From Armatimonadota bacterium (GTDB taxonomy: Bacteria; Vulcanimicrobiota; JACPDS01; JBDRKI01), in assembly GCA_043814095.1 (NCBI GenBank), contig JBDRKI010000069.1:1-48680 (forward strand): a stretch of DNA of 48,680 nucleotides, given 5' to 3'. The position numbers and the translations under genes are program-made. Shown here in pieces: positions 2,645 through 27,704 of this stretch (position 1 is its first letter; each line of letters opens with the position of its first letter). The notes beneath the pieces are model-generated. The model saw nothing but the letters and a program-made list of their open reading frames with translations, searched no databases and was not told the DNA's origin.

Positions 2645-3120
2645 GATTGTTTTTTTGCAAGAACCAGCCTGCAGCATTTGTCTCCGGCGCCGATTAAGCT
2701 TTCAAATTTTAATTTTAATCCGTTCGGCTCAAATGTGCCGAAATCAATCTCTCTTGCCGCATCGCAGAGTGTTTTAATTTTCTTTTTAGAAAGTCCGAGC
2801 TCTTTCCATGCTTTTACAAGCGGGCACGAGCTCATTGTTAAAACGGCGTTTTTCTCATCCGCCCTTATTTTTTTTGATTTAAATACGGTATTGTCCCCCG
2901 GGGATGTTTTTACGAAAGTATCCGCCAGGATTCTTAAGTCATTTCTGTATTTGAAATATTTTTTGCTTTTATCTTCCCCTCTCCTGTAAGCGGCTTTTGC
3001 GAGTATCTCTTTTGCCGTTTTTTCACCGTACTTTTTTCTTGTTTCCTCAAAAACATAGTAATACATTACAGCCCTGTCTTTTATTGCGCTTTCAATCTGA
3101 GAAAAGTATTTTTTCTTCAT
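2641..3120 (-). CDS. L-2-amino-thiazoline-4-carboxylic acid hydrolase-like (V4R-like) protein
   Basis: CPL..AW..LG, LCDAAREIDFG and GDKCC pattern; SD AGGAGG. Confidence 0.7.
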   Translation of the reverse strand: MKKKYFSQIESAIKDRAVMYYYVFEETRKKYGEKTAKEILAKAAYRRGEDKSKKYFKYRNDLRILADTFVKTSPGDNTVFKSKKIRADEKNAVLTMSSCPLVKAWKELGLSKKKIKTLCDAAREIDFGTFEPNGLKLKFESLIGAGDKCCRLVLAKKQS

Positions 3121-3132
3121 CTTAAATCCTCC

Positions 3133-4458: not shown

Positions 4459-4497
4459 TATTCCCTCCACAGCGCGAATATACCGGTAAAAAAGATT

Positions 4498-4523
4498 ATT
4501 CTATGAATATGGCCGGGTATCCT
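4498..4523 (-). promoter_or_regulatory. SigH-like promoter (AGGA-N18-GAAT) upstream of the permease operon
   Basis: Minus strand reads AAAGGA-TACCCGGCCATATTCATA-GAAT; the same pattern recurs before pilB and pilC. Confidence 0.4.
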
Positions 4524-4558
4524 TTGAAAATCCCTCGGGTTTTAACCCTTATTTTATG

Positions 4559-4587
4559 TTGACAAGCGGTAATTTGTTTGATATACT
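4559..4587 (+). promoter_or_regulatory. Sigma-70/A promoter of infC operon
   Basis: TTGACA (4559-4564), 17 bp spacer, TGn-TATACT (4582-4587). Confidence 0.85.
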
Positions 4588-4597
4588 TGCATAAGAT

Positions 4598-4715
4598 TTA
4601 AGCAGAAGCGCACCGCTTCTCACCTTATAACGCGTAAGGCTGTTGATAAGGTAGCAGTTTTTTAAAACTGATTGTTTGATTAAAATAAAAGCGGTGAACT
4701 TCTCATCGCTTTTTT
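4598..4715 (+). ncRNA. L20 leader (ribosomal protein leader) with attenuator hairpin
   Basis: AGAAGCG-CAC-CGCTTCT followed by CACCTTAT...ATAAGGT, then hairpin AAAGCGGTGA/TCATCGCTTT plus T-run, directly upstream of infC-rpmI-rplT. Confidence 0.8.
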
Positions 4716-4749
4716 GTATATACGATACCTGTAAAGGGAGGTGGATTTT

Positions 4750-5259
4750 ATCAGCAAAGACTTAAAGATTAACCGACAGATAAGGGCCAGGGAAGTCAGG
4801 ATAATCACGGAAGACGGCGAACAGCTGGGCGTTATGCCGATTGCGGATGCCTTGAACATGGCGGACGAGCGCGGATACGATCTGGTAGAGGTTTCACCGA
4901 ATGCCGCGCCGCCAGTATGCAAGCTGATGGATTACGGCAAGTATAAATACGAACAGAGCAAGAAAGAAAAAGAGGCGAGATCCAAGCAAAAATTCGTTAA
5001 AGTTAAGGAAATAGAGATGAGGCCCAAAATTGAAGAGCATGACTTCCAGGTAAAGCTCAAAAGGATTTTGGAGTTTCTAAAAGACGGTGATAAGGTTAAA
5101 GTTTCCATATTTTTCAGGGGAAGAGAAGTAGTTTACAAGGATCTGGGCAGAAAAATAATGGACAGGGTAAGGGAAGCCGTAGCGGACTGCGGGGCATTTG
5201 AAAAGGAACCCAAGATGGAAGGCAAAAGAATGTTTACGATTATTTCGTCTAAATCATAG
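4750..5259 (+). CDS. infC: Translation initiation factor IF-3 (probable ATC start)
   Basis: INRQIRAREVRII, DLVEVSPNAAPPVCKLMDYGKYKYE, FFRGRE; SD GGAGGTG sits 6 nt before ATC at 4750. Confidence 0.95.
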   Translation: MSKDLKINRQIRAREVRIITEDGEQLGVMPIADALNMADERGYDLVEVSPNAAPPVCKLMDYGKYKYEQSKKEKEARSKQKFVKVKEIEMRPKIEEHDFQVKLKRILEFLKDGDKVKVSIFFRGREVVYKDLGRKIMDRVREAVADCGAFEKEPKMEGKRMFTIISSKS

Positions 5260-5322
5260 CCAGAGCAGGATTAATTAACATATTAACCAGCAAAATACGC
5301 TTATTTTAGGAGGTAAAGTATT

Positions 5323-5532
5323 ATGCCAAAGATGAAAACCAGAAAATCGCTTGCTAAAAGAGTCAGAGCTACCGGCACCGGCAAGGTAAGAAGATGCAAG
5401 ATGTTTTCAGGGTGCCACCATATTTTAGAGAAAAAGTCACCCAAGAGAAAAAGAGGTTTCAGGAAAACCGCTTTGATGTCCCCTTCTGATGTGAAGAGAA
5501 CCAAAAAAGCATTACCGTATCTCAGCAATTAA
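5323..5532 (+). CDS. rpmI: 50S ribosomal protein L35
   Basis: MPKMKTRKSLAKR, HILEKKSPKRKR; synteny. Confidence 0.96.
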   Translation: MPKMKTRKSLAKRVRATGTGKVRRCKMFSGCHHILEKKSPKRKRGFRKTALMSPSDVKRTKKALPYLSN

Positions 5533-5563
5533 CGGAAAATTAGAAGTAAAATAGGAGGAAATT

Positions 5564-5929
5564 ATGGCAAGAGTTAAAGGCGGAAAAATAGCTATAAAGA
5601 AAAAACGCAAATTGATGAAAGCTGCAAAAGGATACCGCGGCGCGAGATCAAGGCGTGTTAATTGCGCGCAGGAAGCGGTTTTGCACGCGATGGCTTATGC
5701 CACCAGAGACAGAAGGAATAAAAAGAGAGAATTCAGAGCGTTATGGATTACCCGTATTAATGCGGCGGCCAGATTCTATGATATTTCATACAGCAATCTT
5801 ATGAACGGTCTTAAGAAAGCCGGAGTTGATATTAACAGGAAAGTGCTCTCCGATATCGCCTATAATGACATAAAAGAGTTTAAGCCTTATGCTGATATAG
5901 CCAAGAAAGCTTTAAAAGTTAAAGATTAG
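5564..5929 (+). CDS. rplT: 50S ribosomal protein L20
   Basis: MARVKGG, AKGYRGARS, RDRRNKKREFRALWITRINAAAR. Confidence 0.98.
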   Translation: MARVKGGKIAIKKKRKLMKAAKGYRGARSRRVNCAQEAVLHAMAYATRDRRNKKREFRALWITRINAAARFYDISYSNLMNGLKKAGVDINRKVLSDIAYNDIKEFKPYADIAKKALKVKD

Positions 5930-6026
5930 AAAAGATTATTAAGCTAAATTTTATTAGTTTAATAAGATTTAACAAAATTTAAATTAATAAGACTTAATGC
6001 AAAGATAAAAAATCATAAAAATAAGG

Positions 6027-6060
6027 AAAATACCCCTGCAGAACATGCGGGGGTATTTTT
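6027..6060 (+). terminator. Intrinsic terminator after rplT
   Basis: AAAATACCCCTGCA-GAACA-TGCGGGGGTATTTTT. Confidence 0.85.
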
Positions 6061-6089
6061 ATTATCTTTTGTGCTGTTTGGAACATTAA

Positions 6090-6112
6090 AAAATACTCCA
6101 TTTGACCGATAT
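6090..6112 (+). promoter_or_regulatory. 23-bp upstream element, copy 1 (contains sigma-28-like CCGATAT)
   Basis: AAAATACTCCATTTGACCGATAT; 21/23 identical to 45839-45861. Confidence 0.5.
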
Positions 6113-6171
6113 TTTTTATATATTATTAATGTTAAAATTAAAGTGGGAAAAGAAAAGGGGGCTTACCGAAA

Positions 6172-6369
6172 ATGGACAGATGGGACATATTGAGCAGGAT
6201 AAATGATTTCGCGCAGAAACACCATATTCCTGTGAACAATGTAAAACAGAAGATAACCAAAGAAGTGGCCAGTGAGTTTTCCCGCTTGGAAGAGGACTCC
6301 TATCTGGACGAATCTGTTATTGAAAACGCCTTTGATAAAGTAATGAAAGACTTTATGGAAGGCGAATAA
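6172..6369 (+). CDS. Hypothetical protein (65 aa, acidic, helical)
   Basis: ORF with purine-rich upstream AAGGGGG; no family recognised. Confidence 0.6.
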   Translation: MDRWDILSRINDFAQKHHIPVNNVKQKITKEVASEFSRLEEDSYLDESVIENAFDKVMKDFMEGE

Positions 6370-6380
6370 ACGAGGTCGAT

Positions 6381-6686
6381 ATGCTGGATTTATTGAAACC
6401 ATTAAAGGGATTAAAAAAAGAAATGCTTATTCACGGCCCTAAAAAGGACGAGAATATATTAATTAATTTAAGAAAGGCTCCTAATATAGACTGTAAAGCA
6501 TTCTGCCATATGCTGAACATTCTTTACAGCAAAAAGAAGAATTACAAGCTAAATCCAAGGGAAGAAATCCAACTTTTTAAAGATCTTAAAGATGCGGGCA
6601 TAAACAAGAAAAAAATCAGCTTCAATGAACTAACCGACTACAGGGTGTATATCTTCAATAACAGGCACAAACTTCAGACTGCATAA
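6381..6686 (+). CDS. Hypothetical protein (101 aa, basic)
   Basis: SD GAGGT; 11 nt after the previous gene; no family recognised. Confidence 0.6.
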   Translation: MLDLLKPLKGLKKEMLIHGPKKDENILINLRKAPNIDCKAFCHMLNILYSKKKNYKLNPREEIQLFKDLKDAGINKKKISFNELTDYRVYIFNNRHKLQTA

Positions 6687-6733
6687 TACTAGAGAATTTT
6701 TGTTTTATAACCGTAATTCAGGTATGTTTTCTT

Positions 6734-7393
6734 TTATTTTTTATCTTTTTCTTCAAAAAGACTGTCAGGCAGATTCTGGTTAAATTTATAATTTGTATAA
6801 TTTGCTTTTGAGGTAGCGGTTAAATTTATCTTAGGGAACGCAAAAGAAGCTTCGATATCATTAAAAACCCAGTATCCGTCTTTCTGTATATAGTTCTGGT
6901 TTATGATTATTTCAGCTTCGGTATTATATAAAAATACCTGTTTTCTCATGATAAATTCTTTTTTGTCAATCCATATATTATGGCTTTTAAGGTCGCCCAT
7001 TGGCTGTTTCGGTATAAGCTCAAGTATATAGCAGGCGTTCCCGCCCGTATCTTCCTCCCCGGCTATCTTGGTATTAAATTCTTTTACTTCGGGAAGCACC
7101 CATGAAAATACCTGAGGGTATTTTTTTAAGAACGAGGGGGTCTTTTTCAAGTCTACTTTAAATTTATCCGGAGCTTTATAATAATATTTGCCCTGCAGGT
7201 TTATGGGTATGGGCACAAACGACCATTTGGCCTGTATTTTAATGTTAAGATCGGCCTGGCAGTCTTTCATGCCGGAATTTATTGACAGCGCTTTTTTATA
7301 GATTTCGTTAAAGGAAGGTCCCGCGTGGGAAGCATCTGAAAGAAAGACAAATGCGCAAATTATAAGCAACACTGTTATTATTTTATTTCTCAT
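6734..7393 (-). CDS. Exported LolA-like / outer-membrane lipoprotein-sorting family protein
   Basis: Signal peptide ending ASHA; YKAPDKFK, CYILELIPK, IWIDK, NYKFNQNLPDSLF. Confidence 0.75.
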   Translation of the reverse strand: MRNKIITVLLIICAFVFLSDASHAGPSFNEIYKKALSINSGMKDCQADLNIKIQAKWSFVPIPINLQGKYYYKAPDKFKVDLKKTPSFLKKYPQVFSWVLPEVKEFNTKIAGEEDTGGNACYILELIPKQPMGDLKSHNIWIDKKEFIMRKQVFLYNTEAEIIINQNYIQKDGYWVFNDIEASFAFPKINLTATSKANYTNYKFNQNLPDSLFEEKDKK

Positions 7394-7425
7394 AATGATT
7401 CACCTTTGGATATAAGTCGCAAATT

Positions 7426-7890
7426 TTATTTCTTTATTTCAGCGGATATCTCAAGCACCCCGTTTTTAAGCTCTGCTTTAAAATTCTTTGATTCTATAGG
7501 CATGCGCAAGGGTATGTTTTTAAGATACATGCCAAGTTTTCTTTCGTTAAGGTGAAATTTTTTCTCGTCAATATTTACCTTCCGTCCGCTTTCAGCCGTA
7601 AGGATCAGGTAATTATCCGTTATATGGAAGCGTATATCGTCTTTCTCAATTCCGGGGAGTTCTATCTCTATATAGTATTTGTTGTTATGGGAGTATGTTG
7701 CTGATTTAGGGTGGAGCAGGGCGTCTTTTTTTAAGGATGCCTTGTTTGTGAAGATCTCGCTGAAGAGTTCGTCAACGGAGAGCTTCAGCGTTATTAGGGG
7801 GAGCATGGGGTCAAACCCCCATTTAAAATTTTTAACTTTCGGAAGTTCTTTTTTTGTTCTTTCTTTTTTCGTTAAATTTTTTGATGCCAT
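7426..7890 (-). CDS. Small heat shock protein (Hsp20/alpha-crystallin)
   Basis: EIELPGIEKDDI, ERKLG, AELKNGVLEI. Confidence 0.88.
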   Translation of the reverse strand: MASKNLTKKERTKKELPKVKNFKWGFDPMLPLITLKLSVDELFSEIFTNKASLKKDALLHPKSATYSHNNKYYIEIELPGIEKDDIRFHITDNYLILTAESGRKVNIDEKKFHLNERKLGMYLKNIPLRMPIESKNFKAELKNGVLEISAEIKK

Positions 7891-7909
7891 AGTTACCTCT
7901 TTAAAATTA

Positions 7910-8587
7910 TTATATTTCCCGGCCTTTGTATTCTTTGATTTTCATTAAAGTCTTATTCTCTGCTTTCATCCGGGACTGTGGCGTCTTAACTTCGCTTATG
8001 CTGTTTAATATAGATTTTATCAATATGCCCTCATTGTAAGCGAAGTATACCCCCCCGCTTATATCAAAGCTCTGGGTCATGCCCGGTTTAAGCTCAAAAC
8101 TTGTAAAAGGGCAGGATACTTTAATATACGCGCAGTCAAAACCGTCTATGTTTTCTTCTTTTTCAAAGGTATAGGTATAGGTGATTACTATGGGTTCTTC
8201 CCTGCCGGGGAAGCGCAGGTTTACCTGTGAAGCCCAGCTGTCTCCCACGTTTATGGGGTTTTTGGGGAAGGACTGCTGGGAGAATTGAGCCTGCGCCTGA
8301 TCGGCTATAACCTCTCCGTTTTTCTTAAATCTCGCGATAGTGGGTTTTTCTATTGCAGGAAGCTCTTCTTCCGCGTCCTGTCTTACTAAAGAGCCTGATT
8401 CTATAAATATTTCAAGACGGTAGATATCATTTGAGAAATCTTTAACTTCCTGGCGGATATTCATAATAACTTTCTGATCCTGCGAAGTTGTGTTGGCGCC
8501 TATGACTGTTTCCTGTTTGGTTTCCACGCTTGACTGGTATTTTAAAACATCTCCAGGTGTAAATTTATATTCCAGTAAAATGCTCAT
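7910..8587 (-). CDS. Hypothetical beta-rich protein (possibly DUF6263-like)
   Basis: FPKNPINVGDSW motif; SD GGAGG; no signal peptide. Confidence 0.55.
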   Translation of the reverse strand: MSILLEYKFTPGDVLKYQSSVETKQETVIGANTTSQDQKVIMNIRQEVKDFSNDIYRLEIFIESGSLVRQDAEEELPAIEKPTIARFKKNGEVIADQAQAQFSQQSFPKNPINVGDSWASQVNLRFPGREEPIVITYTYTFEKEENIDGFDCAYIKVSCPFTSFELKPGMTQSFDISGGVYFAYNEGILIKSILNSISEVKTPQSRMKAENKTLMKIKEYKGREI

Positions 8588-8744: not shown

Positions 8745-9986
8745 ATGCCCGTAAATATTGATCTTGTATGTGTAAAATGCGGCAGGGAATATACTCCTAA
8801 AGAAGTGAAATATACCTGTATAAAATGCGGCAATGACGGTCTTTTAGACATATTTTATGATTACAATCAGATTAAGAAGAAGATAAAGAAAATCAATCTT
8901 AAGAAAAACCCAGACAGAAGCATAGCCAGGTATGATTTTATTCTCCCCGTAAAATCAAAAGATCTGCTTCCCCAGATTAAAGTAGGGGGAACCCCTATTA
9001 TAAAAAGTACAAGGTTAAATAATTTTTTTAATCTCAAAAATTTGTATATAAAAGATGATACCAGGAACCCCACGGCTTCTTTTAAGGACAGGGCAAGCGC
9101 CGTAGCCGTCGCCAAAGCGCGGGAGTTCGGGTACAAAACCTTAACCTGTGCTTCCACCGGCAATGCCGCATCATCAATGGCGGGCATGTGCGCGGCTCAG
9201 GGATTGAAAGCAAAAATATTCGTGCCGAAAACGGCGCCCGAAGCTAAAGTTGCCCAGCTCCTTATTTACGGCGCGGAAGTTTTTATGGTAAAAGGGACAT
9301 ATGACGAGGCTTTTGATTTCTGTCTGGAGGTTTCAAAAAAGTACCCCTGGTACAACAGGAATACGGGATACAATCCGTATCTTCTTGAAGGCAAGAAAAC
9401 CTGCGCGATGGAGATATGCGAGCAGTTTGATTTTAATGTGCCCGATAAAGTTATTGTTTCGGTGGGTGACGGTTGCATAATAGGGGGGATATATAAAGGT
9501 TTTTACGATTTTTATAAACTGGGCTGGATAGATAAGATACCCCAGATTATAGGGGTGCAGGCGGAAGGTTCATCCCCGCTTGTAAAAGCCTTTAACGGAA
9601 ACAGGGATGTTATACCGGAGAAAGCCGAAACACTTGCTGATTCAATATGTGTTGGACATCCCCGGGCCGCGGGGCAGGCATTAAAAGGTGTTAGAAACTC
9701 CAAGGGTTTTATGGTATCTGTAAAAGACAAAGAGATTCTTGATGCCATAAAGATACTTGCAAGACAATCAGGCATTTTTGCAGAACCCGCAGGCGCCGCT
9801 TCTATAGCCGGACTAAAGAAGCTGGTAAAAGAGAAAAAGATAAAACAGAACGAGAAAGTCGTTGTTATAATAACAGGCCACGGGTTAAAGGATATAAAGA
9901 CAGCGCTAAGCACTGTAAACGCAAAGCCTCATATTATCAATCCAAGCATGAAAGAGCTTCAAAAGGCATTAAAAGGGAAGTCTTAA
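8745..9986 (+). CDS. thrC: Threonine synthase (PLP fold II)
   Basis: N-terminal CxxC...CxxC, NPTASFKDR, ASTGNAA, EGKKT, VGDG, EPAGAA, ITGHGLKD. Confidence 0.93.
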   Translation: MPVNIDLVCVKCGREYTPKEVKYTCIKCGNDGLLDIFYDYNQIKKKIKKINLKKNPDRSIARYDFILPVKSKDLLPQIKVGGTPIIKSTRLNNFFNLKNLYIKDDTRNPTASFKDRASAVAVAKAREFGYKTLTCASTGNAASSMAGMCAAQGLKAKIFVPKTAPEAKVAQLLIYGAEVFMVKGTYDEAFDFCLEVSKKYPWYNRNTGYNPYLLEGKKTCAMEICEQFDFNVPDKVIVSVGDGCIIGGIYKGFYDFYKLGWIDKIPQIIGVQAEGSSPLVKAFNGNRDVIPEKAETLADSICVGHPRAAGQALKGVRNSKGFMVSVKDKEILDAIKILARQSGIFAEPAGAASIAGLKKLVKEKKIKQNEKVVVIITGHGLKDIKTALSTVNAKPHIINPSMKELQKALKGKS

Positions 9987-10595
9987 TCTAAATTTAGGAA
10001 ACAGCTTCCTTATATTCCATCTTGATTTGCCTTTACCGATTCTGGCTTTTTCGGCAAATTTCCCGCTTTTTACGCCAGCTGGTTCTTTGCGGATTGATGC
10101 GGGAACAACCGGAGGTTCTATACTTTTGTTATAATTGGGGAAAGAATGTTTCTGTGCTATTCTATGAATATTTTTTGTTATATGGCCTTCTTCATTAAGC
10201 AGTTTTCCATGAGCAGCATCTGCTAATTCCCAGCAAATAAATTTTGCTATTTTTCTGCTTAAAACAAAGGATGATCGTGCAGGATCATTATTGAATAATC
10301 GTTTGAAAAAATTTCCACCAGCTGAATCTGAATTTTTTGCAGCAGTTATTAAGCGGGACTCTACATCTTTAACGAGTGCTTGAAAATCCGGATGTTTAGG
10401 TTGATCTGTTACTTTTGAGAATCTGGTTAGCATTCCTTTAAAGGCAGCATCGGATTCTTTAGCCATGCTAATTTTTTGCAGTAGGAATCTTACAAATTTG
10501 TTTGTTTCCTTAAATAATGCTGAATTTGTATCAATACCTCCCTTTAAAGAGGCAGCTGCCTGTTCTAATTTAGCCGCTCTAACGGTACCTCCCAT
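9969..10595 (-). CDS. Hypothetical protein (208 aa)
   Basis: SD AAGGGGG; TATAAT at 10648-10643; 18-nt convergent overlap with thrC; no family recognised. Confidence 0.6.
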   Translation of the reverse strand: MGGTVRAAKLEQAAASLKGGIDTNSALFKETNKFVRFLLQKISMAKESDAAFKGMLTRFSKVTDQPKHPDFQALVKDVESRLITAAKNSDSAGGNFFKRLFNNDPARSSFVLSRKIAKFICWELADAAHGKLLNEEGHITKNIHRIAQKHSFPNYNKSIEPPVVPASIRKEPAGVKSGKFAEKARIGKGKSRWNIRKLFPKFRLRLPF

Positions 10596-10658: not shown

Positions 10659-10675
10659 GTTAACAAAATGTTAAC
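10659..10675. promoter_or_regulatory. GTTAAC-N5-GTTAAC box, copy 1
   Basis: GTTAACAAAATGTTAAC, 10 nt upstream of a minus-strand TATAAT. Confidence 0.6.
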
Positions 10676-11588
10676 TTTTTCTCCCTTTTAAGGTATATAC
10701 CGCAACGGGTTTAACGGTTAACCGCTTTTTCGCGGCGGGTATTACTTCTTTTTCTATTAAGCCGTAAAGCCACGGATCCATCTGTTTTAGCCGCATTTTT
10801 TCTTCTTTTGTGCCGAAATACATCTGGAGGCCTGAAACAAGCATCTCGGAAGCGTTTTTGGGCGCGTAACTGAAATGATCAATCATGTCTTCAAAATCCA
10901 GATAGCATTTGTCAGTGTATTTATATGACCAGCATCCGTATTCATTCATTATTTTTTTTGTACTTTCAGGATTTAATTCATGATTTTCTTTATAATTTCT
11001 GTAGATTTCATCGTGGGCTTTTTGCAGGTTGTTCATATATTTCAAGGCGATCTGGGTAAGCTTGCCGTTTTTTTTGCCCTTCTTTTTATATTTTTTATCT
11101 AGGCAACCGCTTAACGCGGATATTTCCCCGCCGGCGTCTTTTAAAATTAAACCGTCTATCGCATGCATAATCTCATGGGATACGGCTTCTTTTAAACTGG
11201 AATGGCTGAAAGCATCATATCTGTTTAAAAGTATCAATATCCTGTCGGGGTATTCAGGAGTACATGATGCGGCGGCCCTTTCATATTCGGATTTGTCTTC
11301 TTTGAAGAAATCATCGTCTTTAAATTTTATTATTCCTATTTCAAAATCCGATTTCATTAATAAATTATAGCCGTCTTTCCATCTTTTATACAGATCTAAA
11401 AAAGGAGGCAGTATAACTTTTTCTATAAAGGCATCGCTGTTGGGTTCTTCTTCTTCAATGGTTTTAAGTGTTGTTATTCTGCCTTCTAAATCCCGCAAGA
11501 CGTTCTTTTTATCTTCTTTGGAATAACTGATTATATTTGAAGTATAAACTTCATTGAAAGATAAGTTATTTATATTATAAATATCCAT
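10671..11588 (-). CDS. Putative zinc metallopeptidase (HExxH; LF/PPEP/MtfA-like)
   Basis: HEIMHAID plus downstream YAPKNASE and LKQMDPWLY. Confidence 0.65.
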   Translation of the reverse strand: MDIYNINNLSFNEVYTSNIISYSKEDKKNVLRDLEGRITTLKTIEEEEPNSDAFIEKVILPPFLDLYKRWKDGYNLLMKSDFEIGIIKFKDDDFFKEDKSEYERAAASCTPEYPDRILILLNRYDAFSHSSLKEAVSHEIMHAIDGLILKDAGGEISALSGCLDKKYKKKGKKNGKLTQIALKYMNNLQKAHDEIYRNYKENHELNPESTKKIMNEYGCWSYKYTDKCYLDFEDMIDHFSYAPKNASEMLVSGLQMYFGTKEEKMRLKQMDPWLYGLIEKEVIPAAKKRLTVKPVAVYTLKGRKS

Positions 11589-11695: not shown

Positions 11696-11723
11696 TTGAC
11701 ATTTAAATTTAAAGTGATAATAT
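11696..11723 (+). promoter_or_regulatory. Sigma-70/A promoter of GNAT-luxE-luxC operon
   Basis: TTGACA (11696-11701), 16 bp spacer, TGn-TAATAT (11718-11723). Confidence 0.6.
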
Positions 11724-11790: not shown

Positions 11791-12969
11791 ATGGCTAAAT
11801 ATAATAAAAAAATAAAGCTTGAAGGCGGTAAAGAGATTATCCTGCGCCAGGCCGATGTAGGCGATATGGATGAGATCAAGCACCTTTATTATACCGTTTA
11901 CGGCGGTAAATACACTCTTCCCGAGATAAATGACAGCGATAAGATGAAATGGATTATAAATGATTCAAATTATTTCTGGCTTGTCGGTGAAGATAACGGG
12001 GAGATAGTTTCATCAGTTATTGCCGTTGTTGAGCCGGATCACAGGATCGGCAAAGTATTTGCCGGCGTTGTCCATCCCGATTTCAGGGGGCATAAACTTT
12101 TAAAGACAAAAATTAAAATTGTCAATGATGTCCTGCTTGATGAACAGGATAAATGCGACCTTGTTTACGCGGTTGTAAGGACATTTGCGCCCCTGAGCCT
12201 GCATGAAGACCTGCACAGTCTGGGTTACGTTGATCTTGGCATATTTCCCAATGTAAGGAAAGTGCAGAGTTATGAAACGCATGGCTTAAAAGCTTATTAC
12301 AAAAAAGGGACCCTCGCCATGAGAAAAGCGCCTCCCTGCCTTATCCCTTCCGCAAATAATATTTATGAGATTACAAGAGAAAAACTTTCAATTGATCCGG
12401 CGCAGATTGATGAAACTAAGCCTGATATGCCGGAAAGGTCAAATCTTGAAGCTGACAGGTTATACATAGAAAAAAGCCCTGAAGTGGAATGGGAGTATTA
12501 CGAGAAAAGGAAAAAGGGCAAGCTTTCCTGCGACTTTTTCCCGCTTCATTATCCCCAGATTAAACTTTACACAAAAGATAAGAAGTCCCATGTATACATA
12601 CATTTCCTGGCGATTGACGGGCACGCGTCCATTATGGGGTTCAGAACGGATCAGGATCCGGTGCTTTTCTTAAACTTTGTATGTGAATATTTAGAATCAA
12701 TGGGGGTAAAGTATCTGGAGATTGTGGCGCCTGCGTATGATTCTGTTATGCAGAACCGGCTTTATCTTGCTAACTTTCTGCCGTGCGCGTATTTTCCGGC
12801 GTTTTCTTTTGGAATGGACGGGAAAAGATATGATCATATAGTTTTCTGCAGGAATTTTGTCCCTTTGAATTTTCAGGGGATGCATTTTTTCTCTGAAGCC
12901 AAGGCTTACGCCAAGGCGTTTTATAAAAATTACAGCGATAAGCTGTGGGGGGATTTAGAGGGTGCATAA
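11791..12969 (+). CDS. GNAT-family acyltransferase with long C-terminal domain
   Basis: IILRQA..D; acetyl-CoA-binding motif VVHPDFRGHKL; LGY..LG. Confidence 0.8.
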   Translation: MAKYNKKIKLEGGKEIILRQADVGDMDEIKHLYYTVYGGKYTLPEINDSDKMKWIINDSNYFWLVGEDNGEIVSSVIAVVEPDHRIGKVFAGVVHPDFRGHKLLKTKIKIVNDVLLDEQDKCDLVYAVVRTFAPLSLHEDLHSLGYVDLGIFPNVRKVQSYETHGLKAYYKKGTLAMRKAPPCLIPSANNIYEITREKLSIDPAQIDETKPDMPERSNLEADRLYIEKSPEVEWEYYEKRKKGKLSCDFFPLHYPQIKLYTKDKKSHVYIHFLAIDGHASIMGFRTDQDPVLFLNFVCEYLESMGVKYLEIVAPAYDSVMQNRLYLANFLPCAYFPAFSFGMDGKRYDHIVFCRNFVPLNFQGMHFFSEAKAYAKAFYKNYSDKLWGDLEGA

Positions 12970-14074
12970 AAATAATGTAGATGTTCTCTGCGGCGATAAT
13001 GCTGCTTTTTTATTGGATTCAAATCACGATAACATGTTTTTAAAGGCGATGAAAGACGCCTTTTCTTTTCATTACTTACATCTTCCCGTGTATAAAAAGT
13101 ACTGCGATAATTACGGGTTTACCCCCAAAGATTTAAAAAAATACGGCGATCTTAATAAAATGCCTTTTATCTTTGTTAATGTTTTTAAGCAGAAGAAGCT
13201 TTTAACCGTTAAAGATAAAGATGTGCAGATGATAATAACGTCATCGGGCACGGGAGGCAGAAAATCCTATATGTACCTGGATAATATAAGTTTGAGGAGA
13301 ATCATAAAGATAATTTACAATATTTACAATGACTTCGGCATGTATAACAGATCTCAAAAAACCAATTACCTTTGTTTTACTTATGACCCGCTTTATGCGG
13401 CTGACGTAGGCACGGCTTTTTCCGACAAATTATTAGCAACATTAACTTTAATCAATAAGATATACTACTCTATAGAGTTTGATAAAAGAATTAAAGATTT
13501 CAGGCTTAACAAAGAAAAGTCCCTGAAAGTTTTAAAAGATTACGAGCAGGATGGATTGCCCGTAAGGATATTGGGGCTTCCCGCTTTTTTATATGAAGTT
13601 ATTAAAGATTTAGGCAAGGGCTTTAAGTTAAGCAGGAAAAGTCATATCATTATAGGCGGCGGGTGGAAAACCCTTAAGGATAAAGAGATTCCCAAAGATG
13701 AGTTCAGAGCGCTTATTGAGGAGAAATTAGGGATGCCCAAAGAAAATATAAGGGATTTATACGGGCTTGTTGAGCACGGGGTTCCTTATTCGGAGTGTGA
13801 ATATGCCAATATGCATGTAAGCATATACTCAAGGGTGATTATAAGGGATCCCGGCACGCTTAAAGTTTTGCCTCCCGGGAAAACCGGGTTAATACAGCTC
13901 CAGACACCCTATATAAATACCATACCGGCTATCTCCATTTTGACGGGGGATATGGGAGTTCTTCATTATGACTGCCCCTGCGGAAGAAAAAGCCCTGTTT
14001 TAAAACTTATGGGAAGAGGCGGCGTCCATAAACATAAAGGGTGCGCGATAACAGCGCTGGATATTTTAAAATAA
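12962..14074 (+). CDS. luxE: Acyl-protein synthetase, LuxE family
   Basis: TSSGTGG, GGGWK, IRDLYGLVEH, ILTGDMG, C-terminal GRGG...KGC; GTG start overlaps the GNAT stop. Confidence 0.88.
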   Translation: MHKNNVDVLCGDNAAFLLDSNHDNMFLKAMKDAFSFHYLHLPVYKKYCDNYGFTPKDLKKYGDLNKMPFIFVNVFKQKKLLTVKDKDVQMIITSSGTGGRKSYMYLDNISLRRIIKIIYNIYNDFGMYNRSQKTNYLCFTYDPLYAADVGTAFSDKLLATLTLINKIYYSIEFDKRIKDFRLNKEKSLKVLKDYEQDGLPVRILGLPAFLYEVIKDLGKGFKLSRKSHIIIGGGWKTLKDKEIPKDEFRALIEEKLGMPKENIRDLYGLVEHGVPYSECEYANMHVSIYSRVIIRDPGTLKVLPPGKTGLIQLQTPYINTIPAISILTGDMGVLHYDCPCGRKSPVLKLMGRGGVHKHKGCAITALDILK

Positions 14075-14106
14075 AAAGCACGAAAAAATAGCGCAAGGAA
14101 AGAATT

Positions 14107-16791
14107 ATGCATACTCATTTTGTATTCGGTGAATTTATAGAAACAGAAGATTATGTAAGTTTAAAAGAGCTTAACGGCATATTAAGCAGGGCGGAAAAGT
14201 TAAGAGACAATATGCCTGCTGTCGGCATTGATGATATTATAGAGATACTTCATAAGACAGGTTTAAGATGGCTCCGTAAAAGCTATCACCTGCGCAAGAA
14301 AGCGTTAAAGCTTATGCCAGGCATTGTGGGTTTTTCCGCTGAGATGGCGGCCGAAGCCATAAACCAGATGGCACAGAGCTTGAATGAGAAAAACTTAAAA
14401 AGAAAGATAAGAATACAGTTAAGGGACAGGTATCTTCTTGATAAATTTATCTTCCAGCTCAAAGAAAGAAATTATTTAAAACTCCAGAGTTTAGGCATTG
14501 TGTCGCATATAAGCGCGGGCAATGTGTTTGCGGGGCCCGTTGATTCCCTTGTTCAGGGAATTTTAACCAAGAACGTGAATGTCCTGAAATTATCGGCGGC
14601 AGATCCGGTGTTCCCGCTTCTTTTTCTGGAAAGCTTAAGAGAAGTTGATAAAGATAAAAAAATCATATCAACAATTGCCGCCGTTGCTTTTAAGGGCGGC
14701 ACAAAAGATATTGAGAAAGAGTTAAAGAAAAGGTCAGACTGCATTGTTGTATGGGGCGGCGATGAAACGGTTGAAAGCTACAGAAAAGAGCTTCCGGTAA
14801 AAACCTCACTTATTGAATACGGGCCGAAAATCAGTTTTTCGGTTTTAACCTGTGACGGATTAAAGAAAAAAGGCATGCCCCAGGCGGCAAAGCTTATAGC
14901 AAAAGATATAGTTATGTGGGAGCAGCGCGCCTGTTCTTCCCCCCAGGTAATTTATATAGAGAGCAAATGCAATAAAGCCATCGGCGCGTTTTTAGAAGCT
15001 TTAGCTTCCGAGCTTTCCGCTATTAAGAAAAATTATCCGTATCCCGAGCTTTCCTCTGATGAGAAAGTTGAAATAACAAAGGCCCGCCTTATATCCAAAA
15101 TGGATGAGGCTTTCGGCGAGTGCGAAGTTTTAGAATCGGATAAAGACCAGTCTTGGACGATAGTTTATGATAAGCAAGACAAAGAAAAACCTTCACCCCT
15201 TAACAGATTTATTTGTGTAAAGCCCTACGATGATATTAATAAGCTTGCCGGTAAATTGAAAAAGATAAGATATTATATGCAGACGGCTTCTGTTCTTGCT
15301 AACCCCAAAGAGTTTATGCATATTGTATCATGCCTTGTGTCTTCGGGTATTGACCGCGTTACTGAGATAGGGAAGATGAGTTCCGGCAAACCAGGCTCCC
15401 CGCATGACGGCAAATTTGAACTGGAACAGCTCCTTAGGTGGGTAAATATAGAGAGCCTGCCTGAAAGATTTGACATAATGAAAAATCTCCAGTATGAAGA
15501 AGTTAAAAAACCTGCGCTTTTCCACGCAATTTACGAAATATTTGATTTTTCAAGAAAGTTCTCCCCTTTTTATAAAAATCTGTATAAGGGCAGGGAGATT
15601 AAAACATGGGATGATTTTTACAGCCTTCCCGTTATTGACAAGCATGATTTATACAAGAATACGCCTCCTAAGAGAAATAAACTTCTTACTGGTTCTCTTT
15701 CAGAGAGCTATATATTTTCATCGGGTGGAACAACAGGCGCTCCCAAATTCAGCTTTTATACTTATGAAGAATTTGAACAGGTAACCGATATCCTGACAGA
15801 TACGTACCTTTCTGCCGGGATAAGGAATACCGATGTTGTGGCCAACCTTTTTGTCGCGGGAAACTTATGGGCTTCGTTTATGGCGGTAAACGCGGCACTC
15901 GAGAAAATAGGCTGTGTTACAATGCCCGTTGCAGGTAATTCCGACATGGATTCAATTATAAGTTTTCTTTCTTCTTTTAAGGCGAATGCTGTTTTAGGGC
16001 TTCCTTCCATTATCCTGCAGCTTGCCCATTATATAGAAGCAAAGAAGATCAAGAATATAAAAATAGAGAAGATACTTTACGGGGGCGAGCATTTTACGGT
16101 TGAGGCCAGGAAATATCTTAAGAAAGTACTGGGAACAAAAATAATAAGGTCGGCGGGCTACGCTTCGGTTGACGCCGGCCCCATAGGATACCAGTGCGAA
16201 CATACAAAAGACACCGTTCACCATGTTTTATCCGATTATGTGTATGTGCAGATAATAGATCCGGAAACTTTAAATCCTGTTCCCGTGGGTCAGACAGGAG
16301 AGATCACCGTTACTTTATTAAAAAGAAAATTCATGCCCCTTATAAAATACCGCACAGGGGATTCGGGGAGAATAATTGCCGAATCCTGCCACTGCGCAAG
16401 AGGCGATGTTCTTTTTGAACTTCTCGGAAGGTGCGATGATGTGGTAAGGGTGGGGAGCGTGAGTATTTACCCCCATGAGATAGAGCAGGCTTTCCGTGAT
16501 ATCCCGGGGCTAAGCCATATCTACCAGCTGGTTGCGGATACAAAAAGAAATAAAGACATACTTACGGTAAGAATAGAACTTAAAGATGACCGCAAAGTTG
16601 ATAAAAAAGCGTTAAGCGCCAGGATAAAAGATAATATTTTAAAACAGGATTTTGAACTTGCATGGGTGCTCCAGGAGCGCTGGCTTGAAGATTTGTTTGT
16701 TGAGATTCTGCCTCCCGGCAGAATACCGAGAACCGGCGCGGGCCAGAGGGGCAAGGTTAAAAGGGTAGTGGATAACAGGAAGATAAAATAA
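14107..16791 (+). CDS. luxC: Fusion of LuxC acyl-CoA reductase (N-terminal ~450 aa) and PaaK-like adenylate-forming ligase (C-terminal ~430 aa)
   Basis: N half: HISAGNV, WGGDE, EYGPKIS, QRACSSPQ, HDG. C half: SPFY, SSGGTTGAPK, GYASVD, YRTGD, GRCDD. Confidence 0.87.
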   Translation: MHTHFVFGEFIETEDYVSLKELNGILSRAEKLRDNMPAVGIDDIIEILHKTGLRWLRKSYHLRKKALKLMPGIVGFSAEMAAEAINQMAQSLNEKNLKRKIRIQLRDRYLLDKFIFQLKERNYLKLQSLGIVSHISAGNVFAGPVDSLVQGILTKNVNVLKLSAADPVFPLLFLESLREVDKDKKIISTIAAVAFKGGTKDIEKELKKRSDCIVVWGGDETVESYRKELPVKTSLIEYGPKISFSVLTCDGLKKKGMPQAAKLIAKDIVMWEQRACSSPQVIYIESKCNKAIGAFLEALASELSAIKKNYPYPELSSDEKVEITKARLISKMDEAFGECEVLESDKDQSWTIVYDKQDKEKPSPLNRFICVKPYDDINKLAGKLKKIRYYMQTASVLANPKEFMHIVSCLVSSGIDRVTEIGKMSSGKPGSPHDGKFELEQLLRWVNIESLPERFDIMKNLQYEEVKKPALFHAIYEIFDFSRKFSPFYKNLYKGREIKTWDDFYSLPVIDKHDLYKNTPPKRNKLLTGSLSESYIFSSGGTTGAPKFSFYTYEEFEQVTDILTDTYLSAGIRNTDVVANLFVAGNLWASFMAVNAALEKIGCVTMPVAGNSDMDSIISFLSSFKANAVLGLPSIILQLAHYIEAKKIKNIKIEKILYGGEHFTVEARKYLKKVLGTKIIRSAGYASVDAGPIGYQCEHTKDTVHHVLSDYVYVQIIDPETLNPVPVGQTGEITVTLLKRKFMPLIKYRTGDSGRIIAESCHCARGDVLFELLGRCDDVVRVGSVSIYPHEIEQAFRDIPGLSHIYQLVADTKRNKDILTVRIELKDDRKVDKKALSARIKDNILKQDFELAWVLQERWLEDLFVEILPPGRIPRTGAGQRGKVKRVVDNRKIK

Positions 16792-16826
16792 AAAGCAGAG
16801 GATTAAATTTTTAACCCCCTGCTTTT
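16791..16826. terminator. Probable bidirectional terminator between convergent genes
   Basis: AAAAGCAGAGGATTAA-ATTT-TTAACCCCCTGCTTTT imperfect stem with A/T tails. Confidence 0.7.
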
Positions 16827-16834: not shown

Positions 16835-17305
16835 TTATTTGTCTAATACAACTTCACCCGAATTGGTTTTTCCTTTAATATAATTTAAGATTTCTTTGTG
16901 ATGAGGTGTTTTCTTGATCATTAAATCAAGGTATTTTTTGAATTTATCGCTTTCTTCTTTGGACAAATAGGTTAGATCAGATATTTCAAGATTGTCTGCT
17001 ACAGGGACGCCTGCGGTATGATAGAATTCGGTAAGCTTAATAACATTCCCATCTTTTTCCAGCTCATAGGTATAATTACTGTTTACGTTTAATGTTATGA
17101 ATGTTTTTCTGCTTTTGGACGTGTTAAGCTTTATATTCAGTGTTGCGCGGCCGTCTTCAAATGTATAGTTTACCGTATTTTCTTTCTTGATTTCTTCGAC
17201 GGATTGAACTTCATTTGTTTTTGTCTGTGCCAGGATATCCTTGGAAAGTCCCGTTTTGATGCTCCCTGTGAAGTTATTGAATAGTTTGCCAGTGATGGTA
17301 TTCAT
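16835..17305 (-). CDS. Hypothetical protein, paralog B of a tandem pair
   Basis: SD AGGGAGG; aligns with 17321-17767 (KKENTV, NYTY.LE.DGN.IKL..FYH, LSKEESDKFK.YL, TPHHK.ILNY, VVLDK). Confidence 0.8.
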   Translation of the reverse strand: MNTITGKLFNNFTGSIKTGLSKDILAQTKTNEVQSVEEIKKENTVNYTFEDGRATLNIKLNTSKSRKTFITLNVNSNYTYELEKDGNVIKLTEFYHTAGVPVADNLEISDLTYLSKEESDKFKKYLDLMIKKTPHHKEILNYIKGKTNSGEVVLDK

Positions 17306-17320: not shown

Positions 17321-17767
17321 TTATTTATCCAGTACAACTTTGCCCGGACTGGTTTTTTCTTTAACGTAGTTTAAGATTGTTTTATGATGAGGCGTTGCCT
17401 TAATCATTGAATTAAGATAGCTTTTAAACTTATCGCTCTCTTCTTTAGATAAGTCATTTTCATAAGATACTGTTTCGACATTATCATAAACAGCAACGAC
17501 CTTCTCATGATAAAAATCCTTTAATTTGATGATGTTCCCATCCTGCTCCAGCTTATAAGTATAATTGGCATTTATGGTCAATGTTATAAGGGCTTTCTTG
17601 TTTTTGGAAGAATCATACTGTATTTTTAAGGTTGCATTCCCGTCTGTCATTTTATATACGGTGTTTTCTTTTTTATTTTCTTTAACGGACTTAACGGTAT
17701 TTGTTTCTGATTGCGATAATATGCCTTTCAAATACCCTGTTTGTACGGCATTATTAATAATGTTCAT
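17321..17767 (-). CDS. Hypothetical protein, paralog A of a tandem pair
   Basis: SD AGGGGG; aligns with 16835-17305. Confidence 0.8.
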   Translation of the reverse strand: MNIINNAVQTGYLKGILSQSETNTVKSVKENKKENTVYKMTDGNATLKIQYDSSKNKKALITLTINANYTYKLEQDGNIIKLKDFYHEKVVAVYDNVETVSYENDLSKEESDKFKSYLNSMIKATPHHKTILNYVKEKTSPGKVVLDK

Positions 17768-17880: not shown

Positions 17881-17983
17881 ATTTCCTCCCTTAAGGCGGC
17901 TTTATGCTTAAATAAAAAGGTATTTCTGGTTCTGTTTGGAAATCTTATCAAGGATCCAAATATTTAAAATAAGGGGGTTAACC

Positions 17984-19339
17984 ATGAAAACCTTATTAAT
18001 CAAAAACGCTGATTTTATCGTTACTTTAAATGATAAAAATGAGATTTTAAAGGGCAGTGATATTTATATAGAAGGCCCGGAGATTAAGAAAATAGGAAAT
18101 CTTGGCGACATTAAAGCTGATGAAGTTATAAACGCTTCGGGCAAATATATATATCCCGGCATGGTAAACACCCACCATCATCTTTACCAGACTTTTACAA
18201 GAAATGTTCCCCAAGTGCAGTCGGCCGAACTTTTTGACTGGCTTATTTATTTATATGAAGTATGGAAGAGGTTTTCCCCCGAAGATTTTTACTACAGCGC
18301 TCTTGTGGGGCTCGGAGAACTTCTTCTTACCGGATGCACGACAGCTGTTGATATGTTTTATGTATTTCCGAAAACGGCAGGTGGTGAGATTTTTGATGTT
18401 CTGGCAAAGGCGGGGCAGGATCTTGGTATAAGGCTTGCTCCGTGCAGGGGTAGTATGTCGCGCAGCAAAAAAGACGGAGGACTTCCGCCCGATGCGGTTG
18501 TGCAGACTGTTGATGAGATTCTGGCTGATTCGGAAAGGGTCATAAAAAAATATCACAGCGCGGATAAATTTTCAATGTGTCAGGTGATTTTAGGGCCGTG
18601 TTCGCCTTTTTCCGTTACGAAAGAACTTATGAAAGAAACGGCTGTTTTCGCGCGCAAGCATGACAAAGTTTATCTGCATACTCACCTGGCGGAAACAGAA
18701 GACGAAAATGATTTTTGCAAAGAAATTTACAAGATGCGCCCTTATGAGCTTATGGAAGATATCGGATGGACGGGGGAAGATGTCTTTTTCGCGCACTGCG
18801 TCCATTTAAATGATGCTGAAATTAAAAAAATGGCGCAGACAAAAACAGGCGTCGCGCATTGCCCTACTTCCAATATGCGGCTGGGATCAGGCGTTGCCCC
18901 CGTGCCGGAGATGCTTAAGAAAGGCGTTAATGTTTCTCTTGCGGTTGACGGCAGTGCCAGCAACGATTCTTCCGACATGCTGGGTGAGGCAAGGCAGGCT
19001 CTTTTAGTGCACAGGATAAAAGGCGCTGACAGGATAAAACCGTTAGATGTGTGGAAAATAGCATCATGCGGCGGTGCAAAAGTACTCGGTAGAACCGAGC
19101 TGGGTTCGCTTGAGGCCGGAAAAGCAGCCGATCTTTTCATGGTTGATACAAATAAGCTGGGTTATGCGGGTGTGTATCCCGAACCTCTGGGACTTCCCCT
19201 TCTTACAGGGAATACACATATTGTTGATACGACAATAGTTAACGGGGAAATTGTGGTCAGGAACGGGAGGTTGACAAAATTGAACGAAGAGGAAATAATA
19301 GAAAGAGCCAATATTTTAGCCGCAAAGCTTTATAAATAG
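17984..19339 (+). CDS. 8-oxoguanine deaminase-like amidohydrolase
   Basis: NTHHHLYQT, PCSPFSV, HTHLAET, AHCVHL, HCPTSNMRLGSG, VDGSASND; ATG 17984 after SD AGGGGG. Confidence 0.85.
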   Translation: MKTLLIKNADFIVTLNDKNEILKGSDIYIEGPEIKKIGNLGDIKADEVINASGKYIYPGMVNTHHHLYQTFTRNVPQVQSAELFDWLIYLYEVWKRFSPEDFYYSALVGLGELLLTGCTTAVDMFYVFPKTAGGEIFDVLAKAGQDLGIRLAPCRGSMSRSKKDGGLPPDAVVQTVDEILADSERVIKKYHSADKFSMCQVILGPCSPFSVTKELMKETAVFARKHDKVYLHTHLAETEDENDFCKEIYKMRPYELMEDIGWTGEDVFFAHCVHLNDAEIKKMAQTKTGVAHCPTSNMRLGSGVAPVPEMLKKGVNVSLAVDGSASNDSSDMLGEARQALLVHRIKGADRIKPLDVWKIASCGGAKVLGRTELGSLEAGKAADLFMVDTNKLGYAGVYPEPLGLPLLTGNTHIVDTTIVNGEIVVRNGRLTKLNEEEIIERANILAAKLYK

Positions 19340-26525: not shown

Positions 26526-26551
26526 ATTTATCAAGCTGGGAGGTGAGAATA

Positions 26552-27691: not shown

Positions 27692-27704
27692 CAAGGAGGA
27701 AGTT

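What the first reader, a model, noticed from the sequence alone, without database searches (positions are those of the whole stretch)
11791..16791. Luciferase-less Lux-like operon: GNAT + LuxE + LuxC fused to a second adenylating enzyme
Seen: a self-contained unit (sigma-70 promoter at 11696, terminator at 16791). It encodes a long GNAT, LuxE with its C-terminal Cys (KGC), and an 894-aa protein joining LuxC (catalytic QRACSS) to a complete PaaK-like ligase (SSGGTTG, YRTGD). No luxA, luxB or luxD is in the window. Known: LuxE and LuxC activate an acid and reduce it to an aldehyde; PaaK-type enzymes make acyl-AMP/CoA; GNATs transfer acyl groups. Inference: a compact carrier-free assembly line with two activated acids, one reduction and one acyl transfer, making an uncharacterised small molecule or lipid. 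I know of no characterised product for this arrangement.
Basis: partly seen in the sequence, partly recalled or inferred. Interest (0 to 1): 0.75.

Follow-up and report, generated by a model that had tools for sequence, protein, structure and literature searches.

The report
Three-gene leupeptin-type aldehyde pathway
Three real, adjacent genes in an uncultured bacterium encode a compact relative of the enzyme set that Klebsiella uses to make the protease inhibitor leupeptin, so they most likely make a small capped amino-acid or dipeptide aldehyde and have nothing to do with light emission.

Summary
In detail: GNAT (11791-12969), LuxE-like (12962-14074, Cys361) and an intact LuxC::ligase fusion (14107-16791, Cys276). 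No luxAB or luxD was found in the 99%-complete genome. The fusion is full-length in 12 of 61 same-phylum genomes searched, so it is no artefact. It is not an orphan: each gene is a distant homologue of the Klebsiella leupeptin operon (LeupA 34%, LeupB 28%, LeupD by profile), and the ligase carries LeupB/LeupC motifs, not PaaK motifs. It lacks LeupC and the MFS exporter and forms its own clade, so it is a variant, not a member. Best reading (0.62): carrier-free synthesis of an N-acyl dipeptide aldehyde, perhaps ending in Arg/Lys. Trees hint that the one-ligase form predates the LeupB/LeupC split (AU p 0.026 and 0.067). Against a simple assembly line: 11 of 28 genomes with this GNAT lack an intact LuxE, and keep a catalytically dead remnant where examined. 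This scan noted the same leupeptin-type cassette before on other genomes; that lead came from those notes and was tested here.

The parts
11696..11723 (+). candidate sigma-70 promoter (TTGACA-16-TAATAT, extended -10 TG) in the 202-bp divergent intergenic gap
   Evidence: 10 of 12 matches; total site count not above shuffles, so placement is the only support
11791..12969 (+). LeupD-like two-domain GNAT, 392 aa; N-domain a canonical GNAT fold, C-domain a more divergent alpha/beta unit
   Evidence: Pfam; AF2 pLDDT 95.9; GNAT folds Z up to 14.8 over residues 16-161, tandem GNATs 7q3a/2wpw Z about 12 over residues 2-336; profile match to LeupD family P 99.4, 293 columns
12962..14074 (+). LeupA/LuxE-like adenylating enzyme, 370 aa: P-loop TSSG (93-96), GTAFSD (150-155), C279/H285/C338/C340, thioester Cys361 (codon 14042-14044)
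   Evidence: (34% to LeupA)
14107..15456 (+). LuxC-type acyl-thioester reductase domain of the 894-aa fusion; catalytic Cys276 (codon 14932-14934)
   Evidence: Cys kept in all 23 fusions aligned
15487..16791 (+). Leup-type (PaaK-fold) ligase domain of the fusion: SSGGTTG, NLFVAGNLWASF, GYASVDAG, YRTGD, A10 Lys883
16791..16826 (.). 16-pair hairpin between convergent genes, called as a terminator on the minus strand; possibly bidirectional
   Evidence: sequence

Best explanation
A minimal, NRPS-independent, carrier-free pathway of the leupeptin type that makes a small N-acyl peptide aldehyde. Step 1 (inferred): the GNAT uses a short acyl-CoA to N-acylate a hydrophobic amino acid. Step 2 (inferred): the fused ligase domain adenylates the N-acyl amino acid and condenses it directly with a free amino acid, without CoA. 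Step 3 (chemistry established for LuxE/LuxC; residues shown here): the LuxE-like enzyme adenylates the C-terminal carboxylate and holds it as a thioester on Cys361, passes it to Cys276 of the reductase, and NAD(P)H releases the aldehyde. Leup has two amide-type ligases and makes a tripeptide; with one, the simplest product is N-acyl-Xaa-Yaa-aldehyde, Yaa possibly Arg or Lys, or a longer peptide if the ligase iterates. With no dedicated exporter it may act on the cell's own proteases or leave by a general transporter. Shown: genes, catalytic residues, homology, conservation. Inferred: substrates, order of steps, product, role.
For: All three genes map onto leup genes from a primer-verified locus (L050: 1,235-bp leupA_f/leupB_r amplicon as published; LeupB 99.9% identical to a named K. 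michiganensis protein): LuxE-LeupA 34% over 371 columns (E 3e-80), fusion-LeupB 28% over 707 (E 4e-88), ligase domain 33% to LeupB and 30% to LeupC; GNAT-LeupD P 96.5 for the N-domain and P 99.4 over 293 columns with a bridging alignment. Ligase motifs NLFxAGxLxxSF, GYASVDAG and GKxxRVxDxR are shared with LeupB/LeupC-type rows and differ in the 5 PaaK outgroups; the Leup-type ingroup is separated from PaaK at 100/100. The same GNAT family sits in five-gene ligase-MFS-GNAT-LuxE-fusion cassettes of Streptomyces and Kitasatospora plasmids. GNAT-LuxE-fusion is contiguous in that order in 9 of the 11 other genomes with a full-length fusion. PaaK-fold enzymes can condense two substrates without CoA (NatL2; passages of PMC7204872). 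Asp155 is shared by this LuxE clade and LeupA (113 of 115 rows) and aligns near the acyl-pocket bottom.
Against: Identities to Leup proteins are only 28-34%, too low to transfer substrates. LeupC and the MFS are missing from the locus; a LeupC query finds only the two fused domains in the genome. Both domain trees put the window outside the LeupB clade. The pocket mapping is register-dependent: the direct alignment to PaaK places a gap there, 110 of the 115 rows are close kin, and the NRPS 235/239 code behind the Arg/Lys guess is recalled, not tested. 11 of 28 genomes with a strong GNAT match have no LuxE match at E 1e-20 and no fusion, so this GNAT has value on its own. In 2 of 11 genomes (G003, G019) the fusion lies apart from GNAT-LuxE. 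The role of each Leup enzyme could not be read: the primary paper is not held.
Confidence: 0.62

Rival explanations
1. The GNAT is not a biosynthetic capping enzyme here but a regulator or a stand-alone acyltransferase (for example acylating the A10 lysine of the ligases or other proteins). LuxE plus the fusion make an uncapped dipeptide aldehyde that cyclises to a pyrazinone signal.
For: GNAT stays intact beside a LuxE remnant lacking the P-loop and the catalytic Cys in the 5 such loci aligned. Related GNATs are fused to an anti-sigma-type HATPase_c_2 domain in 3 of the cassette GNATs scanned and to cNMP-binding domains in Atlas clusters. A protein acetyltransferase (3f8k) is the top PDB sequence hit of the profile and S. 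lividans Pat GNAT scores Z 13.9. Leup-derived pyrazinones act as signals (PMC11480411).
Against: The top fold hits are tied among many unrelated GNATs. The family is homologous over its length to LeupD, the only acyltransferase of an operon whose product is N-acylated. Orphan retention fits a useful N-acyl amino acid equally well.
Confidence: 0.15
2. One reading: same chemistry, non-peptide product. A fatty, aryl or other carboxylic acid is reduced to an aldehyde and joined by an ester or amide into a lipid or small molecule.
For: PaaK-fold ligases take many acids, with ester or CoA-thioester outcomes. The three-gene clade is a separate lineage. LuxC-like reductases serve a fatty-aldehyde step in tambjamine biosynthesis (passages).
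Against: LuxE is closer to LeupA (E 3e-80) than to Photobacterium LuxE (E 4e-28 in a larger database), and far below the lux equivalog cut-offs (117 of 550; 162 of 750). The ligase has Leup-type motifs. No ACP, thioesterase or lipid gene is adjacent in the 9 contiguous loci listed (only a subset of neighbours was scanned).
Confidence: 0.14
3. The unit is not self-contained: it works with partners in trans or nearby (the second cassette on contig C25 with its MFS, or the extra threonine-synthase-like enzyme at 8745-9986 supplying an unusual amino acid) to make a larger or non-standard product.
For: The genome holds a second GNAT-LuxE-MFS-fusion cassette. The thrC-like gene is a second paralogue (the hom-PALP-thrB run is on C23) and lies just upstream of the GNAT in G001, G003, G006, G039 and 1.8 kb upstream here.
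Against: The thrC-like gene occurs in 36 of 61 genomes, including families f10 and f11 with no GNAT match, and on other contigs than the cassette in most carriers. The C25 enzymes belong to another clade and differ at Asp155.
Confidence: 0.08
4. A remnant or dispersed bioluminescence fatty-acid reductase.
For: Pfam LuxE and LuxC hits with both catalytic cysteines.
Against: No luciferase family and no LuxD in a 98.97% complete genome; scores far below lux equivalog cut-offs; fusion to a second ligase as in LeupB.
Confidence: 0.01

Closest known systems
Leupeptin operon (MFS + leupABCD) of Klebsiella michiganensis, Xenorhabdus and Photorhabdus (Li et al. 2020; seen only through citing papers)
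   Same: LuxE-type enzyme with C-terminal Cys, reductase::ligase fusion, two-domain GNAT, no carrier protein; Leup-type ligase motifs.
   Different: No LeupC, no MFS; order GNAT-LuxE-fusion instead of A-B-C-D; 28-34% identity; separate clade in ligase and reductase trees; the fused ligase keeps GYASVDAG and PxxxYRxGD as LeupC-type rows do, where LeupB has LYGSVDAG and VIRYDIGD.
LuxC-LuxE fatty acid reductase of luminous bacteria (PDB 7XC6; PMC9157457)
   Same: Acyl-AMP to LuxE-Cys to LuxC-Cys to aldehyde relay; both cysteines kept.
   Different: No LuxAB or LuxD; below equivalog cut-offs; extra ligase domain and GNAT.
PaaK phenylacetate-CoA ligases and CoA-independent PaaK-fold ligases (NatL2, AjiA1, ClxA, BagE/FevW)
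   Same: Fold, P-loop, A7 and A10 motifs.
   Different: A4 and A5 regions differ from PaaK (GYASVDAG versus YGLxE-type); below PaaK cut-off (164 of 646); fused to a reductase.
Livipeptin/thiolstatin-type acetyl-dipeptide argininals of Streptomyces lividans (10.1101/2020.10.26.356543)
   Same: The kind of product predicted: N-acyl dipeptide aldehyde protease inhibitor from a three-gene unit (passages).
   Different: Made by an unrelated route (tRNA-dependent L/F transferase plus C-minus NRPS); no homology claimed or tested.

Membership tests
leup (leupeptin) operon | LeupA: LuxE/PaaK-family enzyme with C-terminal Cys | tested here: met
   34% over 371 columns, E 3e-80; Cys361 aligns with the LeupA RSC Cys
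leup (leupeptin) operon | LeupB: acyl-CoA-reductase::ligase two-domain protein | tested here: met
   28% over 707 columns, E 4e-88; same Pfam architecture
leup (leupeptin) operon | LeupD: GNAT | tested here: met
   remote homology: hhalign P 96.5 N-domain, P 99.4 over 293 columns with bridging rows
leup (leupeptin) operon | LeupC: free-standing second ligase | tested here: not met
   none in the window; LeupC query and PF14535 find only the two fused domains in the genome; one contig-cut PaaK-like ORF of another subfamily at C25:3-890
leup (leupeptin) operon | adjacent MFS transporter | tested here: not met
   flanking genes are not MFS; an MFS lies in the paralogous C25 cassette
leup (leupeptin) operon | belongs to the LeupB clade (orthology) | tested here: not met
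   LeupB-type rows form a 100/100 clade that excludes the window in ligase trees and a 100 clade in the reductase tree
leup (leupeptin) operon | makes leupeptin or a peptide aldehyde | not testable with these tools
   needs expression and LC-MS
lux operon (luxCDABE) | luciferase luxAB in the genome | tested here: not met
   0 matches to PF00296, 98.97% complete genome
lux operon (luxCDABE) | LuxD acyl transferase | tested here: not met
   0 matches to PF02273
lux operon (luxCDABE) | LuxE and LuxC above NCBIfam equivalog cut-offs | tested here: not met
   117.4 of 550 and 161.5 of 750 bits
lux operon (luxCDABE) | acylated Cys of LuxE and catalytic Cys of LuxC | tested here: met
   aligned to 7XC6 chains
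PaaK phenylacetate-CoA ligase | score above TIGR02155 cut-off and PaaK A4/A5 motifs | tested here: not met
   163.8 of 646.3 bits; motifs differ from 5 outgroup rows, 3 of them annotated PaaK
PaaK phenylacetate-CoA ligase | CoA thioester formation | not testable with these tools
   needs an enzyme assay

The most novel reading that the evidence does not exclude
The three-gene unit is the ancestral, one-ligase form of the leupeptin pathway (LeupB-ligase and LeupC arose later by duplication) and is an old, largely vertically inherited part of one branch of this phylum. There it makes an undescribed intracellular N-acyl dipeptide aldehyde or pyrazinone that tunes the cell's own proteases or acts as a signal. 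In several lineages the reductive half was lost while the GNAT was kept with a catalytically dead LuxE that now serves as a pseudo-enzyme partner or ligand sensor. That would make PaaK-fold amide ligases with a LuxCE relay a general carrier-free peptide-aldehyde platform with a readable pocket code.
Probability: 0.22. Interest if true: 0.62.

Novelty: new variant of a known kind. Interest (0 to 1): 0.37.

Why it matters
It removes a false 'orphan lux' lead and places the cassette in a known class, which makes it directly testable: about 5 kb, three soluble enzymes, a predicted product class with simple trapping and protease assays. If right, it yields a new peptide-aldehyde protease inhibitor or signal from an uncultured phylum and a minimal CoA- and carrier-free amide-forming plus reducing catalyst. 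It is also the simplest system in which to assign the roles of Leup-type enzymes.

Tried and rejected
Assembly artefact: rejected, the fusion is one open frame in 12 of 61 genomes, in 7 plasmid records covering at least 80% of the query and in LeupB. Dispersed lux: rejected. The single genome-contig scan with the GNAT alone gave 2 loci, one useful. Read evidence: 1 run listed, share 0.06, no RNA holder listed; laid contigs covered 8 of 30 bins and did not bridge the junction: uninformative. Fold searches of the GNAT gave only tied generic GNAT hits, no substrate clue; N- versus C-half profile comparison was weak (P 15), so 'tandem GNAT' rests on partial structural matches. Flanking thrC-like and 8-oxoguanine-deaminase genes as pathway members: not supported, both occur widely away from the cassette. 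Look-ups of earlier notes by sequence and by place gave nothing. Literature searches found no paper on a three-gene form; the primary leup paper and its supplement, and the PaaK structure paper, are not held, and that supplement may already list such variants.
Full report
Observation. The three ORFs, their lengths and all quoted motifs are in the sequence. GNAT and LuxE overlap by 8 nt and the fusion follows after 32 nt. Pfam gives LuxE (E 2e-48), LuxC (E 2e-95) followed by AMP-binding and AMP-binding_C_2, and a weak GNAT. Against 7XC6, LuxE Cys361 and reductase Cys276 align with the acylated cysteines (roles from passages of PMC6279958, and part 1 of 5 of PMC9157457). The promoter-like site is well placed but the count of such sites is at chance level, and the hairpin was called on the minus strand only. 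The genome (2.5 Mb, 98.97% complete) has no match to the luciferase or LuxD families. Named close homologues come from MAGs labelled Eremiobacteraeota, Vulcanimicrobiota, Xenobia, Armatimonadetes or Chloroflexi, so the host is probably Vulcanimicrobiota (inference).

Conservation. Of 61 genomes searched (own plus 60 relatives), 12 hold the fusion full-length in one stop-free frame, at 16 places. In 9 of the 11 others, GNAT, LuxE and fusion are contiguous in the window's order, with no MFS or free ligase hit in the 9.6-19 kb fetched (one GNAT is cut by a contig end); in G003 and G019 the fusion stands apart from GNAT-LuxE. Kin are not independent. The own genome has a second, more distant cassette on C25: GNAT-LuxE-MFS-fusion. 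On named plasmids, the Streptomyces and Kitasatospora regions viewed carry ligase-MFS-GNAT-LuxE-fusion and a Salmonella plasmid carries LuxE-fusion-ligase-GNAT.

What it is related to. A word look-up of this scan's earlier notes pointed to the leupeptin operon; I had not made that link and tested it. [quoted passage not shown] A passage of PMC11212599 says the pathway uses separate AMP-dependent ligases for amide bonds and a reductase for the aldehyde. PMC11480411 (passages and Discussion) reports leupeptin, a lysine analogue and derived pyrazinone signals. With the published leupA primer (PMC8283571 passages) I retrieved 8 loci and used one, L050: it gives the published 1,235-bp amplicon and a LeupB 99.9% identical to a named K. 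michiganensis protein. Window versus L050: LuxE-LeupA 34%, fusion-LeupB 28%, ligase domain 33% to LeupB and 30% to LeupC, GNAT-LeupD E 1e-5 by BLAST, P 96.5 by profile for the N-domain and P 99.4 over 293 columns when six GNATs of related cassettes and the Salmonella one bridge the alignment. The primary paper (Li et al. 2020) is not held: I saw it only through these citing papers, and the role of each Leup enzyme is my inference.

The ligase is Leup-type, not PaaK. In an alignment of 39 ligase domains, all fused and LeupC-type rows share NL(F/M/L)xxGxL(W/Y)xxF-like, (G/A)Y(A/G)SVD(A/G)G-like and GKxxxVxDxR-like motifs, while the 5 outgroups have YG/FS-x-F/W/Y and YG(L/M)xE-type motifs (one Bacillus row is intermediate). 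Scores are far below PaaK and lux cut-offs. CoA-independent condensation by this fold is established for NatL2 (passages of PMC7204872).

How it differs from leup. No LeupC and no MFS; a LeupC query finds only the two fused domains in the genome, and a contig-cut ligase of another subfamily lies past the C25 cassette. Trees: with 35 rows, 33 of 39 rows (six near-duplicates or long rows dropped) and 27 of 39 rows, the window's ligase falls in a clade of three-gene-type fusions (96/99, 99/96, 92/84), outside a group that joins LeupB-type ligases with LeupC-type (97/93, 99/97, 92/90). Holding all fused domains together was rejected at p-AU 0.026 with 33 rows but not with 27 (0.067). I named that test after seeing the first tree, and the LeupB branch is long. 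The reductase tree (quick, 27 rows) also separates the window from the LeupB clade. So 'leup minus LeupC' is not favoured; a one-ligase ancestor with later duplication is plausible but unproven. This departs from the 'trimmed-down' wording of earlier notes.

Substrate hints. Asp155 (GTAFSD) is present in 113 of 115 LuxE-type rows including LeupA, and absent from the C25 and G045b paralogues; 110 of those rows are close kin. By profile alignment to the Leup-type ligases it lies five residues after the position matching the A4 aromatic residue, which a review table places in the acyl pocket (passages of PMC8388817). By the NRPS code (recalled), acid at that place suggests a basic side chain, and the lack of Asp right after the aromatic suggests an N-acylated substrate; the fused ligase has small or hydrophobic residues there. 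The direct alignment to PaaK puts a gap in this region, so this is a weak hint. AF2 models are confident (GNAT pLDDT 95.9; LuxE 91.9 with a low-confidence tail at 357-367 around Cys361) but fold searches give only generic GNAT and PaaK-fold matches.

Evidence against a strict three-enzyme line. Of 28 genomes with a strong GNAT match, 11 have no LuxE match at E 1e-20: 9 of 9 in genus g5, plus G049 and G053. None has a fusion; a LuxC-family search in 5 of the 11 found nothing in 4 and two weak partial hits in G053. I fetched 7 of the 11 loci: in 6 a LuxE-like ORF follows the GNAT, in one no ORF was listed in the short stretch before the contig end. The 5 aligned lack the TSSG P-loop and end before the catalytic Cys, while the GNAT keeps its conserved residues. 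The GNAT therefore does something useful alone. Related cassette GNATs carry HATPase_c_2 domains.

Mechanism and verdict. Most likely (0.62) an N-acyl dipeptide aldehyde made by GNAT capping, CoA-free amide formation on the fused ligase, and a LuxE-Cys361 to reductase-Cys276 relay. Rivals: regulatory or stand-alone GNAT with a pyrazinone product (0.15), non-peptide product (0.14), partners in trans (0.08), bioluminescence (0.01). It works like the leupeptin pathway but fails membership on LeupC, MFS and clade: a new variant of a known kind. No paper on the three-gene form turned up in searches of an open-access library; the unseen supplement of Li et al. 2020 may list it. Other papers seen as passages only: 10.1101/2025.08.11.669332, 10.1101/2020.10.26.356543, PMC13232609 (not relevant). 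Earlier agents of this scan reached the leupeptin link for other genomes. Interest 0.37.

Noticed in passing
L028 (G000:C25) 2309-8337, minus strand; ORF 3-890: Second cassette in the same genome: GNAT (355 aa), LuxE-like (35% to the window's, His instead of Asp155), MFS, full fusion (40%); then a DUF4172-Fic gene on the other strand and a contig-cut PaaK-like ligase of another subfamily. Probably a different, exported product.
   Followed up: partly
L063 4810-6991; L064 5582-7898; L077 5306-7658; L066 6155-7913; L067 5847-7677: Intact GNAT followed by a LuxE remnant that lacks the P-loop and catalytic Cys but keeps an open frame (330-376 aa in genus g5; 192 and 221 aa in G049, G053), in genomes with no reductase-ligase fusion: candidate pseudo-enzyme.
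   Followed up: partly
window 8745-9986 and 17936-19339: An extra threonine-synthase-like gene and an 8-oxoguanine-deaminase-family gene flank the cassette here and directly abut it in G001; the PALP gene precedes the GNAT in G003, G006, G039. Both also occur away from it; likely old synteny.
   Followed up: yes
L026 7596-13354 (CP054717.1); CP053580.1: A conjugative Salmonella plasmid carries leupABCD orthologues (73, 66, 66, 52% identical to Klebsiella LeupA-D) without the MFS, among recombinase and toxin-antitoxin genes; a second Salmonella plasmid is 99.8% identical there.
   Followed up: partly
L023, L024 3713-11346, L025 3992-11352: Streptomyces, Streptantibioticus and Kitasatospora plasmids hold five-gene leup-type cassettes whose ligases group with LeupB and LeupC: a possible NRPS-independent leupeptin-type route in actinomycetes.
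   Followed up: partly
L041 10742-12340; L042 5897-7291; L046 3755-5236: Cassette GNATs fused to an N-terminal anti-sigma-type HATPase_c_2 domain.
   Followed up: no
L056 3856-7237; L057 3838-9674; L058 1417-6114; L062 3745-9586: Another luciferase-less LuxE-LuxC family, with an SDR and an ABC or SLC23 transporter, on Pantoea, Priestia, Lactiplantibacillus and Azospirillum plasmids; looks like an uptake-and-reduce salvage module.
   Followed up: no
window 10671-11588 (-), 9969-10595 (-), 16835-17305 (-), 17321-17767 (-): Family-less genes inserted on both sides of the cassette: one with an HExxH motif (HEIMH; below-cut-off ATLF Pfam hit, E 0.019), and two tandem ORFs that look like paralogues by eye.
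   Followed up: no
window 25869-30839: Propanediol/ethanolamine-utilisation-like genes (phosphate propanoyltransferase, acylating aldehyde dehydrogenase, RnfC-like), suggesting a microcompartment locus; unrelated to the finding.
   Followed up: no
L070 6536-7678 and L037 8495-10846 (G007): In G007 the LuxE has Ser in place of the catalytic Cys and an altered P-loop, the fusion ends at 783 aa and no GNAT match was found: a decaying copy.
   Followed up: partly
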